From NCBI GenBank assembly GCA_015654725.1, contig JAATGI010000154.1, positions 1 to 24,219 of the forward strand: DNA of 24,219 bases, in the 5' to 3' direction. The stretch is from Rhodospirillales bacterium (lineage in GTDB: Bacteria > Pseudomonadota > Alphaproteobacteria > ATCC43930 > CGMCC-115725). Position 1 is the first letter of the stretch; every line of letters starts with the position of its first letter. Of the stretch, positions 4,548 through 7,825 are shown one piece after another. The translations under genes were made by a program, and so were the position numbers. The notes under the pieces are model-generated. The model saw nothing but the letters and a program-made list of their open reading frames with translations, was not told the DNA's origin and made no database searches.

Positions 4548-5576
4548 TCAGAATTTGAACTGCGCCTTCCAATAATCTTGGATCTGCGCCACCAGCGCGG
4601 GCGGCAACGGCACGTAATCGAGCGCCTCGGCTTGCGGCTGGCCCTCCTTGAAGGCCCAGGCGAAGAAATCGAGCACCGCTTGCGAGCGCGTCGCGTCCTT
4701 CGGCACCTTGTGCATCAGGACGAACGACGTCGCCGCGATCGGATAGGCCTGGTCCCCCGGCGCGTTGGTCATGATCAGGTAAAAGTCCTTGGCCTTGGTC
4801 CAGTCGGCGCTCGCCGCGGCCGCCTGGAAGCTGTCGCGGTCGGGCTTGATGAAATTGCCGGCCGCGTTTTGCACCAGCGCATAGGTCATCTTGTTTTGCA
4901 GCACATAGGCATATTCGACATAGCCGATCGAGCCCTTGATCTGATTGACATAGGCGGCGACGCCTTCGTTGCCCTTGCCGCCGATGCCGGTGGGCCAAGA
5001 AACCGAGGTGTCGGCGCCGACTTTCGTCTTCCATTCCGGACTGACCTTGGACAGGTAGTCGGCGAAGTTGAAGGTCGTGCCCGATCCGTCCGAGCGATGC
5101 ACCACCGAAATCTTCACGTCCGGCAGCTTCACGCCGGAGTTGACCGCGGCCAGCGCCGGATCGTTCCAATTGGTGATCTTGCCGAGATAAATGTCGGCGA
5201 TGATCGGCCCGGTCAGATTCAATCCGCCCGGCGCCACGCCGTCGATATTCACCACCGGCACGATGCCGCCGATCACGTCGGGAAATTGACCCAGGCCGGC
5301 GGCGTCGAGATCTTCCGGCTTCAGGGGCTTGTCGCTGGCGCCAAAATCGACCGTGCCGGCCTTGATCTGGGCGATGCCGCCGCCCGAGCCGATCGACTGA
5401 TAATTCATGCGGTTGCCGGTCTTGGAGGCATAATCGGCCGCCCATTTGGCGAATACCGGATAAGGAAACGTCGCCCCCGCGCCGGCGATATCGATCGCGT
5501 AGGCGGTACCCATGCCGATCGCGCCGGCGGCGACGAGAGCCGCCACGGCAATCAATGGCCGAATGCGAAACGCCAT
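4548..5576 (-). CDS. pstS: Phosphate ABC transporter substrate-binding protein PstS
   Basis: GAGATFPYP, YQSIGSGGGI, VDFGASD, HRSDGSGTTFNF, GKGNEGV, GSIGYVEYAY and YPI motifs; SD GAGGAG. Confidence 0.96.
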   Translation of the reverse strand: MAFRIRPLIAVAALVAAGAIGMGTAYAIDIAGAGATFPYPVFAKWAADYASKTGNRMNYQSIGSGGGIAQIKAGTVDFGASDKPLKPEDLDAAGLGQFPDVIGGIVPVVNIDGVAPGGLNLTGPIIADIYLGKITNWNDPALAAVNSGVKLPDVKISVVHRSDGSGTTFNFADYLSKVSPEWKTKVGADTSVSWPTGIGGKGNEGVAAYVNQIKGSIGYVEYAYVLQNKMTYALVQNAAGNFIKPDRDSFQAAAASADWTKAKDFYLIMTNAPGDQAYPIAATSFVLMHKVPKDATRSQAVLDFFAWAFKEGQPQAEALDYVPLPPALVAQIQDYWKAQFKF

Positions 5577-5653: not shown

Positions 5654-5687
5654 ACTCTATTGGCGGGTGATTGCAGTTTCGTGACGA
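5654..5687 (-). promoter_or_regulatory. Putative Pho box plus -10 element of pstS
   Basis: Minus strand TCGTCAC-GAAA-CTGCAAT (5687-5670; consensus CTGTCAT-N4-CTGTCAT), then exactly 10 nt, then TAGAGT (5659-5654). This is the canonical PhoB promoter geometry. Confidence 0.6.
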
Positions 5688-5833
5688 GGAAACGGCGCCT
5701 GCGAGAAATCGTCTCTCCCAAATCTGGGGGAATGAACGTTCCGCTGTACTATATATGGGAGGTGTGATAGTTTTCGTACTCGGGCTAGGCAGCGGATCGT
5801 CCGTTGCTGCCCGTGCGAACGAGGACAGAAATT

Positions 5834-5896
5834 ATGGCAGCGAAAAAGAAAGCAAAGGCGAAGCCGGCGAAGCGGGCCGCCAAGAAGAAGAAGTAG
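5834..5896 (+). CDS. Putative 20-aa Lys/Ala-rich micropeptide MAAKKKAKAKPAKRAAKKKK
   Basis: SD GAGGA at 5821-5825, 8 nt before ATG; 11 of 20 residues basic; TAG followed by two hairpins. Confidence 0.6.
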   Translation: MAAKKKAKAKPAKRAAKKKK

Positions 5897-5903
5897 TCGC
5901 GTC

Positions 5904-5967
5904 CGTCTGAGCGTTTCAGACGATCGCGGGGCTGCTCTGCACCGAAGGGGGTTCAGAGCAGCCCCGC
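5904..5967. terminator. Tandem hairpins between convergent genes (no U-tract)
   Basis: CGTCTGA/TCAGACG (5904-5922) and a perfect 14-bp stem GCGGGGCTGCTCTG/CAGAGCAGCCCCGC (5926-5967). Confidence 0.4.
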
Positions 5968-6037
5968 CAGCGCACGGTTCCCCGGCCCTGCGGCCGGCAG
6001 AGAAATCGGCGATAAATCTCCCACTTTCGATGTGCTT

Positions 6038-7825
6038 TTACGGACGAAACCGCGATAAATCGACGGCTTTCAGCCGATCGCGCGTGTAGCGATATCCGGA
6101 CTCGATCGCCCGGTCGAACGCGCGCCAGTCGCGCATCGCGATATCCTCCAGGGGCGGCTCGATCAGCAGATCGACATGCGATCGGCTGTGCTCGGTTTCG
6201 ACCTCGCTGCCGATGGTGCCGGCGCGCAGCAGCATGGTCACGATTCCCGGGGCGGCCTTGTCGTCGCCAAGAAACAGCCGCGCCAGCGGCCCGCGCTTGA
6301 CCGGGCGGAAGTCGTCTCGCCGGCCGACATCGACGCCGATGATCGGGCCCTGATTCCATTCCGTCATGGTGGCGGCCGGCAGGTTGTTCATCACCGCGCC
6401 ATCGACCAGAATCTCGCCGTCCTCCACGACCGGCGGCAACAGGCCGGGAATCGCGACGCTGGCCCGCAGCGCCCGCCATACCGGCCCGCGATCGTGCAAT
6501 CTCAGCCGGCCGCTCGTCAGATTCGAGGACACCGCGAAATAGGGCCGCCACAGATCCTCGATGCGGTCGTCGCCGAAATGTTTTTTGAGCCGCGCGGTGA
6601 CGCGGCGGCCCGTGGTCAGCGCCAGGATCGGCAGCGTCACGTCGCGCAGGGGATCGGAGCGCACGAAGGCGTCGAGCATGCGCTCGCGCAGTTCGGCGAT
6701 GTCCCATTCATGCGCCAGGCCCGCCGCCACGATCGCGCCCATGCTGGTGCCGCCAAGGAGATCGAAGGCGACGCCTGCCTCTTGCAGCGCCTGCACCACG
6801 CCGACATGGCCGTAGGCGCGCGCGCCGCCGCCCGACAGCACCAGCCCGACGGCGCGGCCCGACAGCATGCGCGCCAGCCGTGCCATGTCGGCCGTATCGC
6901 CGCGCCGCAAATGATAATGAAACCGCGCCGGCACCAGCGCGAGCCACGGCCCCGCCGGCAACGGCATCGGGCGCCGATCCTGCATCACCGCGAGATCGAA
7001 GCGCTGCCACGGCGAGGTCTGGAGCGCGGATAGAATCGGCGGGCTTCGCGGCGCCGCTGCGGCGTCCACGATGACGATGGCATGGTCGCCGCGCCGGGCG
7101 CAGAGCCGCGACCAGTTGGTCAGCGCCGCGTCCGCGCGGTAAATCACGCGGTCGTGCCCCTGTTCGATGGCGGCGAATTCGGTTTCGGTCGCCGCCGCCG
7201 CGGCCGAATCGAGCAGGGCAACGCGCAATCCGGATCTGCCGAACTGATCGGCGAGCGCCTGCGCCAGCGGCGCCGCCGACTCGTCGCCGACCGGAAACAG
7301 CGCGATGGTGCGCGGCGGCGCTTGCCGGGCGTCGCGGAGATGCGGCCGGCGCAGCCAGCCGATGATCTGGGCCGTCACCCGCATCATCGCCTCGGGATGA
7401 AGCGTCAACAGCCGCTCGAACGCGGTGGCCGGCACGCGCAACAGCGAGGTGTCGCGCAGCGCCGTCACCGTCGCGGTATGAAAGCCGGTGTCGAGCATCG
7501 CGACCTCGCCGACAATGTCGCCGGGATGGACCTCGATCTCGCGCGTTCCATTGCGCTCGATGCCCAATATGCCGCTCAACACGACGTAAAACGCGTCGGC
7601 CGGTTCTTTTTCGGCGAACAGGATGGTGCCGCCGGGCAGATCGAACCACGATATTTCGTCGGCGATGCTGGCGAGCGCCGCGGGAGCCATGCCGGCGAAA
7701 AACGGCACCGCTTCGAGCCGCGGCGGCGCGATCGCGGTATCCAGCGCAGCCGCGGCCGCGCTTGCGTGCGGTGCAACACGGCCATGCGCTGCCAACGTGT
7801 TGCCGTTTTTCGCGTCGCTTACCAA
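6038..7825 (-). CDS. cNMP-binding domain + patatin-like phospholipase (NTE/RssA family)
   Basis: N-terminal CAP domain (LFAEKEPADAFYVVLSG, GDIVGEVAML); patatin motifs GGGARAYGHVG, GTSMG and DGA. The start is uncertain (TTG, no adjacent SD). Confidence 0.9.
   Translation of the reverse strand: MVSDAKNGNTLAAHGRVAPHASAAAAALDTAIAPPRLEAVPFFAGMAPAALASIADEISWFDLPGGTILFAEKEPADAFYVVLSGILGIERNGTREIEVHPGDIVGEVAMLDTGFHTATVTALRDTSLLRVPATAFERLLTLHPEAMMRVTAQIIGWLRRPHLRDARQAPPRTIALFPVGDESAAPLAQALADQFGRSGLRVALLDSAAAAATETEFAAIEQGHDRVIYRADAALTNWSRLCARRGDHAIVIVDAAAAPRSPPILSALQTSPWQRFDLAVMQDRRPMPLPAGPWLALVPARFHYHLRRGDTADMARLARMLSGRAVGLVLSGGGARAYGHVGVVQALQEAGVAFDLLGGTSMGAIVAAGLAHEWDIAELRERMLDAFVRSDPLRDVTLPILALTTGRRVTARLKKHFGDDRIEDLWRPYFAVSSNLTSGRLRLHDRGPVWRALRASVAIPGLLPPVVEDGEILVDGAVMNNLPAATMTEWNQGPIIGVDVGRRDDFRPVKRGPLARLFLGDDKAAPGIVTMLLRAGTIGSEVETEHSRSHVDLLIEPPLEDIAMRDWRAFDRAIESGYRYTRDRLKAVDLSRFRP

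What the first reader, a model, noticed from the sequence alone, without database searches (positions are those of the whole stretch)
5821..5967. Unannotated 20-aa polycationic histone-H1-like micropeptide divergent from pstS
Seen: SD GAGGA, 8 nt, ATG, then MAAKKKAKAKPAKRAAKKKK* (10 Lys + 1 Arg, no acidic residues), followed by two hairpins. It is too short for the ORF track. Known: K/A/P-rich repeats typify H1-like DNA-binding tails (AlgP, Hc1/Hc2, mycobacterial HupB). Inference: a free-standing polyanion-binding peptide (DNA, RNA or polyphosphate), possibly tied to phosphate status because it shares an intergenic region with the Pho-box promoter.
Basis: partly seen in the sequence, partly recalled or inferred. 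Interest (0 to 1): 0.7.

Follow-up and report, generated by a model that had tools for sequence, protein, structure and literature searches.

The report
Conserved free-standing oligolysine micropeptide gene
A 20-codon gene for a peptide that is half lysine sits next to the phosphate-uptake gene pstS; it is conserved and apparently translated, no gene caller records it, and it belongs to a widespread class of tiny polycation genes whose function is untested.

Summary
Window 5834-5896 (+) encodes MAAKKKAKAKPAKRAAKKKK (10 Lys, 1 Arg, no acidic residue). It has an SD at 5821-5825 and two downstream hairpins, and it lies divergent from a bona fide pstS.

It is not a chance ORF:
- Seven of eight same-genus genomes keep the ATG, SD, frame and TAG stop, with only in-frame length changes and mostly third-position substitutions.
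- Every genome with the ORF also carries a second paralogous micro-gene. That copy has unrelated UTRs, so the reading frame is the shared part.
- A DNA-pattern scan of one genome per prokaryotic species gave at least 119 hits. Of these, 69 are free-standing 14-38-codon Lys/Ala/Pro ORFs in many phyla, usually with a strong SD and an intrinsic terminator.
- Those ORFs avoid TGA stops and AAA codons relative to their neighbours.

No Pfam, NCBIfam or Rfam family matches, and I found no paper describing them. This scan has reported the same kind of micro-gene before on other DNA.

Best reading: a translated, disordered polycation of about +11 charge that binds polyanions. A phosphate or polyphosphate link is suggestive only. 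It rests on pstS synteny here, a ppk1-sORF-ppx or CHAD arrangement in one acidobacterial lineage, and a Ppx homologue near one further locus. I obtained no expression data.

The parts
5834..5896 (+). 20-codon micro-ORF MAAKKKAKAKPAKRAAKKKK with TAG stop. After Met removal the peptide would be about 2.05 kDa, pI about 11.6 and charge about +11.
   Evidence: Orthologues of 19-24 codons in 7 same-genus genomes.
5821..5825 (+). Shine-Dalgarno GAGGA, 8 nt before the ATG
   Evidence: Relatives keep AGAGGGA or GAAGGAA 7-8 nt before the ATG.
5720..5754 (+). Conserved promoter-like block: AAATCTGGG (5720-5728) and the invariant CTGTACTATAT (5744-5754). The second probably holds the -10 element. There is no good -35 element.
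   Evidence: Alignments. The sigma-70 consensus scan found nothing here, so the promoter assignment is an inference.
5782..5812 (+). 5'-UTR stem-loop (GGGC...GCCC), nearly invariant in relatives
5904..5922 (+). Small 3' hairpin (7-bp stem CGTCTGA/TCAGACG)
   Evidence: One-sided changes keep the pairing in relatives.
5926..5967 (+). 14-bp GC-rich terminal hairpin, terminator-like. Relatives follow it with CCCATTTT; this genome has no T-run.
5671..5686 (-). Pho-box-like direct repeat CGTCACGAAACTGCAA, about 95 nt upstream of the pstS start (context, not part of the micro-gene)
   Evidence: Conserved in 6 relatives. One of only 2 genome matches to the degenerate motif. Matches about 11 of 18 positions of the E. 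coli consensus as I recall it.
4548..5576 (-). pstS, the divergent neighbour
   Evidence: TIGR00975, NF008171.
6038..7825 (-). Cyclic-nucleotide-binding and patatin-like phospholipase gene, the convergent neighbour
   Evidence: The same neighbour occurs in relatives.

Best explanation
Window 5720-5967 is a self-contained monocistronic mini-gene. It consists of a promoter-like block, a structured 5' UTR, an SD, a 20-codon ORF and two 3' hairpins. The ORF is translated into an intrinsically disordered peptide of about 19 residues and about +11 charge, made of Lys, Ala and Pro. With no hydrophobic or acidic residues and no folded domain, the peptide can act only electrostatically. It would coat, neutralise or condense cellular polyanions (RNA and ribosomes, DNA, polyphosphate), like a free-standing histone-H1-type tail or a gene-encoded polyamine. 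Shown here: the ORF is conserved under protein-level constraint, and it belongs to a widespread class of such mini-genes. Inferred: translation itself, polyanion binding, and which polyanion matters in the cell.
For: - Orthologues: 7 of 8 same-genus genomes hold the unit at 73-78% identity. All keep the ATG, SD, K-rich frame and TAG, with lengths of 19, 20 or 24 codons, so indels are in frame.
- Substitution pattern: six gapless 19-codon orthologues vary at 0, 2 and 7 sites in codon positions 1, 2 and 3. Six codons change synonymously and 2 non-synonymously.
- Paralogue: a second locus in G000-G007 (19-25 codons; G000 contig C270) has a different promoter, UTR and terminator, so only the ORF is shared.
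- Strain variant: a soil-metagenome contig carries an in-frame +3 nt insertion and a synonymous change (low depth).
- Antisense frames lack conserved start codons.
- Wider class: 69 of 119 pattern hits are free-standing ORFs of 14-38 codons across bacterial phyla, plus 3 archaeal records. 42 of 66 have a core SD, and most are followed by a hairpin and T-run.
- Stop codons in those ORFs: TAA 35, TAG 28, TGA 3. In loci of at least 60% GC, TGA is 2 of 38 against 43 of 70 in neighbouring genes (p = 3e-9).
- Lys codons in loci below 50% GC: AAG is 67% in the ORFs against 34% in neighbours (p = 1e-17). This fits selection against slippery A-runs in a translated frame.
- The same N-terminal sequence heads SWIB-, HU- and H1-like DNA-binding proteins.
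Against: - There is no transcript, ribosome-footprint or peptide evidence for this locus or its orthologues.
- The UTR and terminal hairpins are even more conserved than the ORF, so an RNA-level role cannot be excluded.
- Low-complexity Lys/Ala sequence can arise convergently, so the cross-phylum class may not be one homologous family.
- The pattern search fixed the first 7 residues and a KPAK motif, so similarity in those parts is by construction.
- Very short peptides are often degraded quickly.
- This genome's terminal hairpin lacks a T-run.
Confidence: 0.6

Rival explanations
1. Phosphate-linked version: the peptide is a dedicated polyphosphate-granule or phosphate-starvation factor. It would be co-regulated with pstS by PhoB, and it would bind or organise polyP as the Lys-rich tails of Caulobacter Ppk1 and Pseudomonas AlgP do.
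For: - pstS-sORF synteny with a conserved Pho-box-like site holds in every relative whose flank is available.
- The micro-gene's promoter lacks a -35 element, as activator-dependent promoters do.
- In an unrelated acidobacterial lineage, 13 of 14 loci place a homologous-looking micro-ORF beside polyP genes. Nine are ppk1 > sORF < ppx, one has ppx at a contig end, and three have a convergent CHAD-domain gene 22-26 nt away.
- A deltaproteobacterial locus has a Ppx homologue 1.4 kb away.
- My rough estimate is 3 independent lineages with such neighbours against about 0.5 expected (Poisson p about 0.014).
- Precedents: the 22-residue basic tail of Ppk1 (PMC3806658) and the AlgP KPAA domain on polyP granules (PMC9239181), read.
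Against: - The Pho-box-like site is oriented and positioned for pstS, not for the micro-gene.
- The paralogue and 65 of 69 free-standing loci have no phosphate gene within the 8-kb pieces fetched.
- Only 1 of 29 ppk1 loci sampled across Acidobacteriota has such an ORF, so that synteny belongs to one lineage.
- There is no K-rich ORF near ppk1 in this genus.
- Synteny within a genus is weak evidence.
Confidence: 0.2
2. Ribosome-associated micro-protein: the peptide is an accessory polybasic ribosomal component or rRNA counter-ion, analogous to bS22, bL37, bTHX or eL41.
For: Similar size and charge. Strong SDs, a TAA/TAG preference and stable structured mRNAs fit high expression. rRNA is the most abundant cellular polyanion (general knowledge). 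Two loci lie next to the gene for ribosomal protein L21.
Against: No NCBIfam or Pfam hit to any ribosomal family. The sequence is low-complexity Lys/Ala with variable length and indels, unlike the Arg-rich, position-specific known micro-r-proteins. There is no consistent linkage to ribosomal operons.
Confidence: 0.12
3. Non-coding or dual-function small RNA: the conserved hairpins and the single-stranded A/G-rich (ARN-like) stretch are the functional parts, for example as an Hfq-binding RNA, and the ORF is incidental.
For: The 5' UTR hairpin and terminal hairpin, loop included, are nearly invariant across 7 genomes, more so than the ORF. The 219-nt RNA folds at -103.9 kcal/mol, z = -5.4.
Against: No Rfam match. 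The paralogues share only the ORF. The evidence also includes third-position substitution bias, in-frame indels, and a conserved ATG, SD and stop. The class-wide stop-codon and AAG biases are translation-level signatures. Only 4 of 58 predicted pairs show compensatory change.
Confidence: 0.07
4. Regulatory leader or sensor ORF: translation of the Lys-rich frame senses lysyl-tRNA or ribosome state and controls a neighbouring gene.
For: Runs of one amino acid are typical of attenuator leader peptides (general knowledge).
Against: There is no co-directional downstream gene. The ORF is followed by terminator-type hairpins and a convergent gene here, and by terminators in most other lineages. No alternative antiterminator fold overlaps the ORF. 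Neighbours are unrelated to lysine metabolism.
Confidence: 0.03

Closest known systems
Lys/Ala/Pro-rich histone-H1-like tails of bacterial proteins: AlgP and PhaF KPAA domain, chlamydial Hc2, mycobacterial HupB C-terminus, Bordetella BpH1
   Same: Composition (K about 50%, A about 30-35%, some P, no acidic residues), predicted disorder, and expected electrostatic binding to DNA or polyP. The same MAAKKKA...KPAKK sequence occurs as the N-terminal tail of SWIB-, HU- and H1-like proteins found by the same pattern. AlgP's tail associates with polyP granules (PMC9239181).
   Different: Those tails run to tens or hundreds of residues of tandem repeats and are fused to a folded domain. This is a 20-residue peptide encoded alone, with its own SD and terminator. 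No Pfam model (HC2, linker histone) matches it.
Positively charged 22-residue C-terminal tail of Caulobacter crescentus Ppk1 (PMC3806658)
   Same: Similar length and charge. That tail is needed for co-localisation with polyP granules. In one acidobacterial lineage the micro-ORF lies about 105 nt behind ppk1.
   Different: That tail is part of the enzyme, whereas this peptide is separate. In this window's genus it is next to pstS, not ppk1.
Polybasic ribosomal micro-proteins (bS22, bL37, bTHX, eL41)
   Same: Size of 20-35 residues, extreme positive charge, and often missed by gene callers.
   Different: Those are Arg-rich with conserved, position-specific sequences and curated models. This peptide is low-complexity Lys/Ala of variable length and matches no model.
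Oligolysine/Lys-Ala micro-genes reported earlier by this scan in other genomes (Sumerlaeota, Acidobacteriota, Bacteroidia, Dehalococcoidia, DPANN archaea)
   Same: Same architecture: strong SD, a 10-25-codon Lys/Ala ORF, its own terminator, conserved among relatives and unannotated.
   Different: Those are AI notes on other DNA and I did not check them. Homology with this locus cannot be established for such low-complexity sequence.

Membership tests
Bacterial histone-H1-like Lys/Ala/Pro-repeat proteins (AlgP/PhaF CTD, Hc2, HupB CTD) | Lys/Ala/Pro-dominated, acid-free low-complexity composition | tested here: met
   10 K, 7 A, 1 P, 1 R and no D/E in 20 residues. Class average is K 51%, A 31%, P 5%.
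Bacterial histone-H1-like Lys/Ala/Pro-repeat proteins (AlgP/PhaF CTD, Hc2, HupB CTD) | Long tandem array of KPAA/AKKA-type repeats (tens to more than 100 residues) | tested here: not met
   Only 20 residues with one KPAK unit.
Bacterial histone-H1-like Lys/Ala/Pro-repeat proteins (AlgP/PhaF CTD, Hc2, HupB CTD) | Tail fused to a folded domain (HU fold, AlgP N-domain, PhaF phasin) | tested here: not met
   Free-standing ORF bounded by SD/ATG and TAG in all 8 genomes of the genus that carry it.
Bacterial histone-H1-like Lys/Ala/Pro-repeat proteins (AlgP/PhaF CTD, Hc2, HupB CTD) | Match to a curated model (Pfam HC2, Hc1, linker histone) | tested here: not met
   No Pfam or NCBIfam hit at E up to 10. 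Short, biased queries are hard for HMMER.
Bacterial histone-H1-like Lys/Ala/Pro-repeat proteins (AlgP/PhaF CTD, Hc2, HupB CTD) | Binds DNA and/or polyP | not testable with these tools
   Needs EMSA, coacervation or localisation experiments.
Polybasic ribosomal micro-proteins (bS22, bL37, bTHX, eL41) | Conserved family-specific sequence recognised by curated models | tested here: not met
   No NCBIfam or Pfam hit. Length and sequence vary by in-frame indels.
Polybasic ribosomal micro-proteins (bS22, bL37, bTHX, eL41) | Physical presence in the ribosome | not testable with these tools
   Needs ribosome purification with MS or cryo-EM.
Attenuator leader peptide | Lies upstream of, and on the same strand as, the gene it regulates, with alternative terminator/antiterminator folds | tested here: not met
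   The downstream gene is convergent. Hairpins follow the stop directly and no competing fold overlaps the ORF.
Trans-acting Hfq-type sRNA | No conserved reading frame; conserved unpaired seed; intrinsic terminator with U-tail | tested here: not met
   The frame, ATG, SD and stop are conserved with third-position bias. There is no Rfam match. A U-tail is present in relatives but not in this genome.
Pho regulon member | Pho box replacing the -35 element of its own promoter | tested here: inconclusive
   The only Pho-box-like site (5671-5686) faces pstS and ends about 58 nt upstream of the conserved CTGTACTATAT block. The region at -35 is conserved (AAATCTGGG) but does not resemble a Pho box.

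The most novel reading that the evidence does not exclude
These mini-genes are a pan-prokaryotic, so far undescribed class of gene-encoded oligolysine counter-ions, acting as protein polyamines. Their physiological partner would be polyphosphate. In this genus the gene would be switched on with pstS under phosphate limitation, and in one acidobacterial lineage it would have been captured between ppk1 and ppx or placed beside a CHAD granule protein. There it would nucleate, neutralise or position polyP granules.
Probability: 0.2. Interest if true: 0.85.

Novelty: new variant of a known kind. Interest (0 to 1): 0.62.

Why it matters
Genes of 14-38 codons fall below every standard gene caller. 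None of ten exact peptides from this class is present among about 15 billion predicted proteins. If these mini-genes are translated, as their SDs, stop-codon choice and Lys-codon choice suggest, many bacteria and some archaea make an abundant unrecorded polycation. Such a peptide could affect nucleoid, ribosome or polyphosphate-granule physical chemistry. The peptide is small enough to synthesise, so binding and condensation with DNA, RNA and polyP can be tested directly. The ppk1-sORF-ppx and pstS neighbourhoods give concrete genetic starting points.

Tried and rejected
- Expression: no RNA holder was listed for window 5700-6000. Laying the one metatranscriptome of the same study (contigs) gave no cover. 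This says nothing either way.
- Rfam at E up to 10 gave only noise.
- The sigma-70 promoter and terminator consensus scan found nothing at the locus.
- Pfam and NCBIfam gave no hit for three peptides.
- The search for homologous proteins refuses queries under 40 aa.
- An exact look-up of 10 peptides found none in the collection.
- Eight literature searches found no description of free-standing oligolysine genes. A Breaker-lab IGR survey does not mention them.
- Antisense hydrophobic ORF (type-I-toxin-like): rejected, because start codons are not conserved and the T-runs lie on the + strand.
- Chance ORF: rejected.
- Universal gene neighbour: none found among 113 flanking genes.
- My first Pho-box regular expression had the wrong spacing. 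The corrected motif hits only pstS and one intragenic site.
- No K-rich ORF lies near ppk1 in the genus, and only 1 of 29 sampled acidobacterial ppk1 loci has one.
- Locus L216, from an unpublished genome (G190), was left out.

Full report
**The observation**

- GAGGA lies at 5821-5825, followed by 8 nt and then ATG at 5834.
- Twenty codons read MAAKKKAKAKPAKRAAKKKK, ending in TAG at 5894-5896.
- A 7-bp hairpin follows at 5904-5922, then a 14-bp GC-rich hairpin at 5926-5967.
- The divergent neighbour at 4548-5576 (-) is PstS (TIGR00975, 409.7 bits).
- The convergent neighbour at 6038-7825 (-) is a cNMP-binding patatin-like protein.

The window is contig C236 of an 80%-complete MAG of 2.68 Mb and 64.8% GC, from a wood-decay metagenome. 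One same-genus MAG is deposited as 'Stellaceae bacterium', an alphaproteobacterial family.

In this GC-rich genome a Lys-rich ORF is very unlikely by chance. Of 21,520 ATG-started ORFs of 12-40 codons, only three are Lys-rich and free of acidic residues. Two of those are this ORF and a paralogue on contig C270.

**Conservation in the genus**

Seven of eight same-genus genomes hold the whole roughly 190-nt unit at 73-78% identity. It was not found in the eighth, G008. Each keeps the ATG, an SD 7-8 nt upstream, a Lys-rich frame and a TAG stop.
- Four genomes read MAAKKKAKPAKKTAKRKKK.
- Two read MVAKKKAKP[AV]KKTAKRKKK.
- One reads a 24-codon version.

Lengths of 19, 20 and 24 codons mean that every indel kept the frame. 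UTR gaps, by contrast, include single nucleotides. Among the six gapless 19-codon orthologues, variable sites number 0, 2 and 7 at codon positions 1, 2 and 3. They include transversions at Ala third positions.

Each of G000-G007 also has a second micro-gene of 19-25 codons, MAAKKKAAKKKPAKKAAKK[RK] or similar. In G000 it reads MAKAKKAAKKKPAAKKVAKKK, on C270. This copy has a different, sigma-70-like promoter (TCGACT-17-TATGAT), a different short UTR and a classical intrinsic terminator. The two loci share only the reading frame. That is hard to explain unless the peptide, or at least its translation, is the selected feature.

Antisense frames have no conserved start codons. A low-depth soil-metagenome contig shows a strain variant with an in-frame +3 nt insertion and a synonymous change.

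**RNA anatomy**

Upstream lie two conserved blocks, AAATCTGGG and the invariant CTGTACTATAT at 5744-5754. The second probably holds the -10 element; there is no recognisable -35 element. The likely transcript is about 210 nt.
- It has a nearly invariant 5' stem-loop at 5782-5812.
- The A/G-rich ORF is unstructured.
- The two 3' hairpins close it.
- The predicted fold is -103.9 kcal/mol, z = -5.4.

Because these elements hardly vary, covariation is uninformative: 4 of 58 predicted pairs show compensatory change. Their conservation exceeds that of the ORF. A stabilising or regulatory RNA role is therefore likely in addition to coding, and a purely non-coding role cannot be fully excluded. Relatives have TTTT after the terminal hairpin; this genome does not.

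**A widespread class**

A degenerate DNA pattern for MAAKKKA-x(0-4)-KPAK was run against one genome per prokaryotic species.

Sixty-nine hits (66 distinct DNAs) are complete ORFs of 14-38 codons, median 22. They occur in:
- Acidobacteriota, Dormiibacterota, Thermoanaerobaculia and Eisenbacteria;
- Vulcanimicrobiota/WPS-2, Verrucomicrobiota and Planctomycetota;
- Myxococcota and other 'Deltaproteobacteria', and Chloroflexota;
- many Patescibacteria;
- Alpha- and Gammaproteobacteria, plus two MAGs labelled Bordetella parapertussis (a betaproteobacterial name);
- three archaeal MAGs.

Forty-two of 66 have GGAG, GAGG or AGGA at -20 to -5. Most are followed within 30-70 nt by a GC hairpin and a T-run. 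Several lineages show conserved UTRs across species, so the genes are maintained within those lineages.

Two features were not imposed by the pattern and point to translation.
- TGA stops are almost absent: 3 of 66 overall. In loci of at least 60% GC, TGA is 2 of 38 against 43 of 70 in neighbouring genes (p = 3e-9).
- In loci below 50% GC, the ORFs use AAG for 67% of Lys codons against 34% in neighbouring genes (p = 1e-17). This is what selection against slippery A-runs would produce.

The other 50 hits are N-terminal tails of longer proteins with SWIB, HU-like or H1-like domains. That links this sequence type to nucleic-acid-binding contexts.

These counts come from hits chosen by the pattern, and relatives are not independent. 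Common descent cannot be shown for sequence of such low complexity.

**Context and the phosphate question**

Across phyla the flanking genes are heterogeneous, and no family recurs beyond lineage-specific synteny. About half of the downstream genes are convergent. The unit is therefore autonomous.

In this genus, pstS is the divergent neighbour wherever the flank is available. The shared spacer holds a conserved Pho-box-like repeat (CGTCACGAAACTGCAA on the pstS strand, 5671-5686). It is one of two matches in the genome. The site is placed for pstS, so whether it also drives the micro-gene is unknown.

One hit gave an independent lead. In an acidobacterial MAG the micro-ORF lies 106 nt behind ppk1 and convergent with ppx. 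Among 30 relatives of that genome, 14 loci were fetched (the MAG's own and 13 relatives'), and all carry MA[AT]KKKAAK-x(2-6)-KKKAAKK with a GGAGGTGA SD. All but one end in TAA; the other uses TAG.
- Nine loci sit as ppk1 > sORF < ppx.
- One has ppx at a contig end.
- Three lie 22-26 nt from a convergent CHAD-domain gene. From general knowledge, CHAD is a family associated with polyP granules.
- One is elsewhere.

A deltaproteobacterial locus, with two tandem K-rich ORFs, has a Ppx homologue 1.4 kb away.

Against a general link:
- Only 4 of 69 free-standing loci have ppk1, ppx, CHAD or pstS within the fetched 8 kb.
- Only 1 of 29 ppk1 loci sampled across Acidobacteriota carries such an ORF.
- There is none near ppk1 in this genus.

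My rough estimate is three independent lineages against about 0.5 expected (p about 0.014). That is suggestive, not decisive.

Published precedents make the chemistry plausible. The 22-residue basic tail of Caulobacter Ppk1 is needed for co-localisation with polyP granules (PMC3806658). The KPAA tail of AlgP associates with and spaces polyP granules (PMC9239181).

**Mechanism and rivals**

I commit to a translated, disordered polycation of about +11 charge that binds polyanions electrostatically (0.6).

I put the chance that the ORF is a real translated gene at about 0.85. The ligand is the uncertain part. The rivals are:
- a polyP- or Pho-specific role, about 0.2;
- ribosome association, about 0.12;
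- a purely non-coding RNA, about 0.07;
- a leader or sensor ORF, about 0.03, contradicted by terminators and convergent genes;
- chance, negligible.

**Comparison with what is known, and novelty**

The peptide works like an H1-type Lys/Ala/Pro tail, but it fails the membership tests for that group. It has no repeat array, no folded partner domain and no model match. It also fails the tests for polybasic ribosomal micro-proteins.

No curated family matches it, it is not in the predicted-protein collection, and the library searched holds no paper on it (and eight literature searches).

This scan has reported the same kind of micro-gene before on other DNA: Sumerlaeota, Acidobacteriota, Bacteroidia, Dehalococcoidia and a DPANN archaeon. 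This locus is therefore a further member rather than a first sighting.

- the cross-phylum census with translation-level signatures;
- the two-paralogue argument;
- the ppk1/ppx/CHAD neighbourhood.

**Limits**

There are no expression data for this locus. The genome is an incomplete MAG, and ppk1 was not found in it. All functional statements are inference.

Noticed in passing
window 5926-5967 and orthologues (alignment A4): The terminal hairpin is almost invariant across 7 genomes, including most of its 14-nt loop (ACCGGTGGGGGGT). That is unusual for a plain terminator. This genome alone lacks the T-run after it.
   Followed up: partly
G000 contig C270:279-344 (-), locus L179: A second micro-gene in the same genome reads MAKAKKAAKKKPAAKKVAKKK. 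It has a GGGGG SD and its own intrinsic terminator. In most same-genus genomes the downstream gene is convergent and its C-terminus reads like an OmpA-family end (read by eye from the DNA).
   Followed up: partly
L180-L193 (Acidobacteriota relatives of L056): A micro-ORF MA[AT]KKKAAK..KKKAAKK is wedged between ppk1 and ppx (9 loci) or beside a 514-aa CHAD-domain protein (3 loci). The Ppx proteins there end in basic tails such as ...QKKRGRR. Most of these genomes also have a second copy of the micro-ORF elsewhere.
   Followed up: partly
L147:2245-2319 and following (Deltaproteobacteria MAG): Two K-rich micro-ORFs lie in tandem, the second starting 16 nt after the first stop and reading MATKKKKAAKPAKKK.... 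A Ppx homologue lies about 1.4 kb upstream.
   Followed up: no
L057, L061, L070, L074, L079, L095 and others: In Gemmatimonadota and Betaproteobacteria the same MAAKKKAAKKPAKK sequence is the N-terminal tail of 100-116-aa proteins that continue ...RKPNAAFMKP.... By memory this looks like a SWIB/MDM2 domain. A CHAD homologue (L108) and a Ppk1 homologue (L132) lie within a few kb of two of them.
   Followed up: no
L043-L055 (genus g9 of the window's family) and L033, L035, L036, L041 (genus g12): HU-like 101-aa proteins and roughly 380-aa proteins start with the same MAAKKKA Lys-rich head. Genus g12 also has free-standing MAAKRKAKKKAKKKKKKK and MAAKKKAKKKAKKAKKKKK ORFs.
   Followed up: no
L139, L145, L173: Archaeal MAGs (Nitrososphaeraceae, Pacearchaeota and an unclassified archaeon) carry 14-24-codon ORFs of the same type.
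   Followed up: no
window 5790-5937, soil metagenome run X2: A 151-nt contig from an unrelated soil metagenome carries a near-identical micro-gene. It has an in-frame CGG insertion after 5864, a synonymous G>C at 5866 and an Ala>Thr change at 5876. Depth is only 2.4.
   Followed up: no
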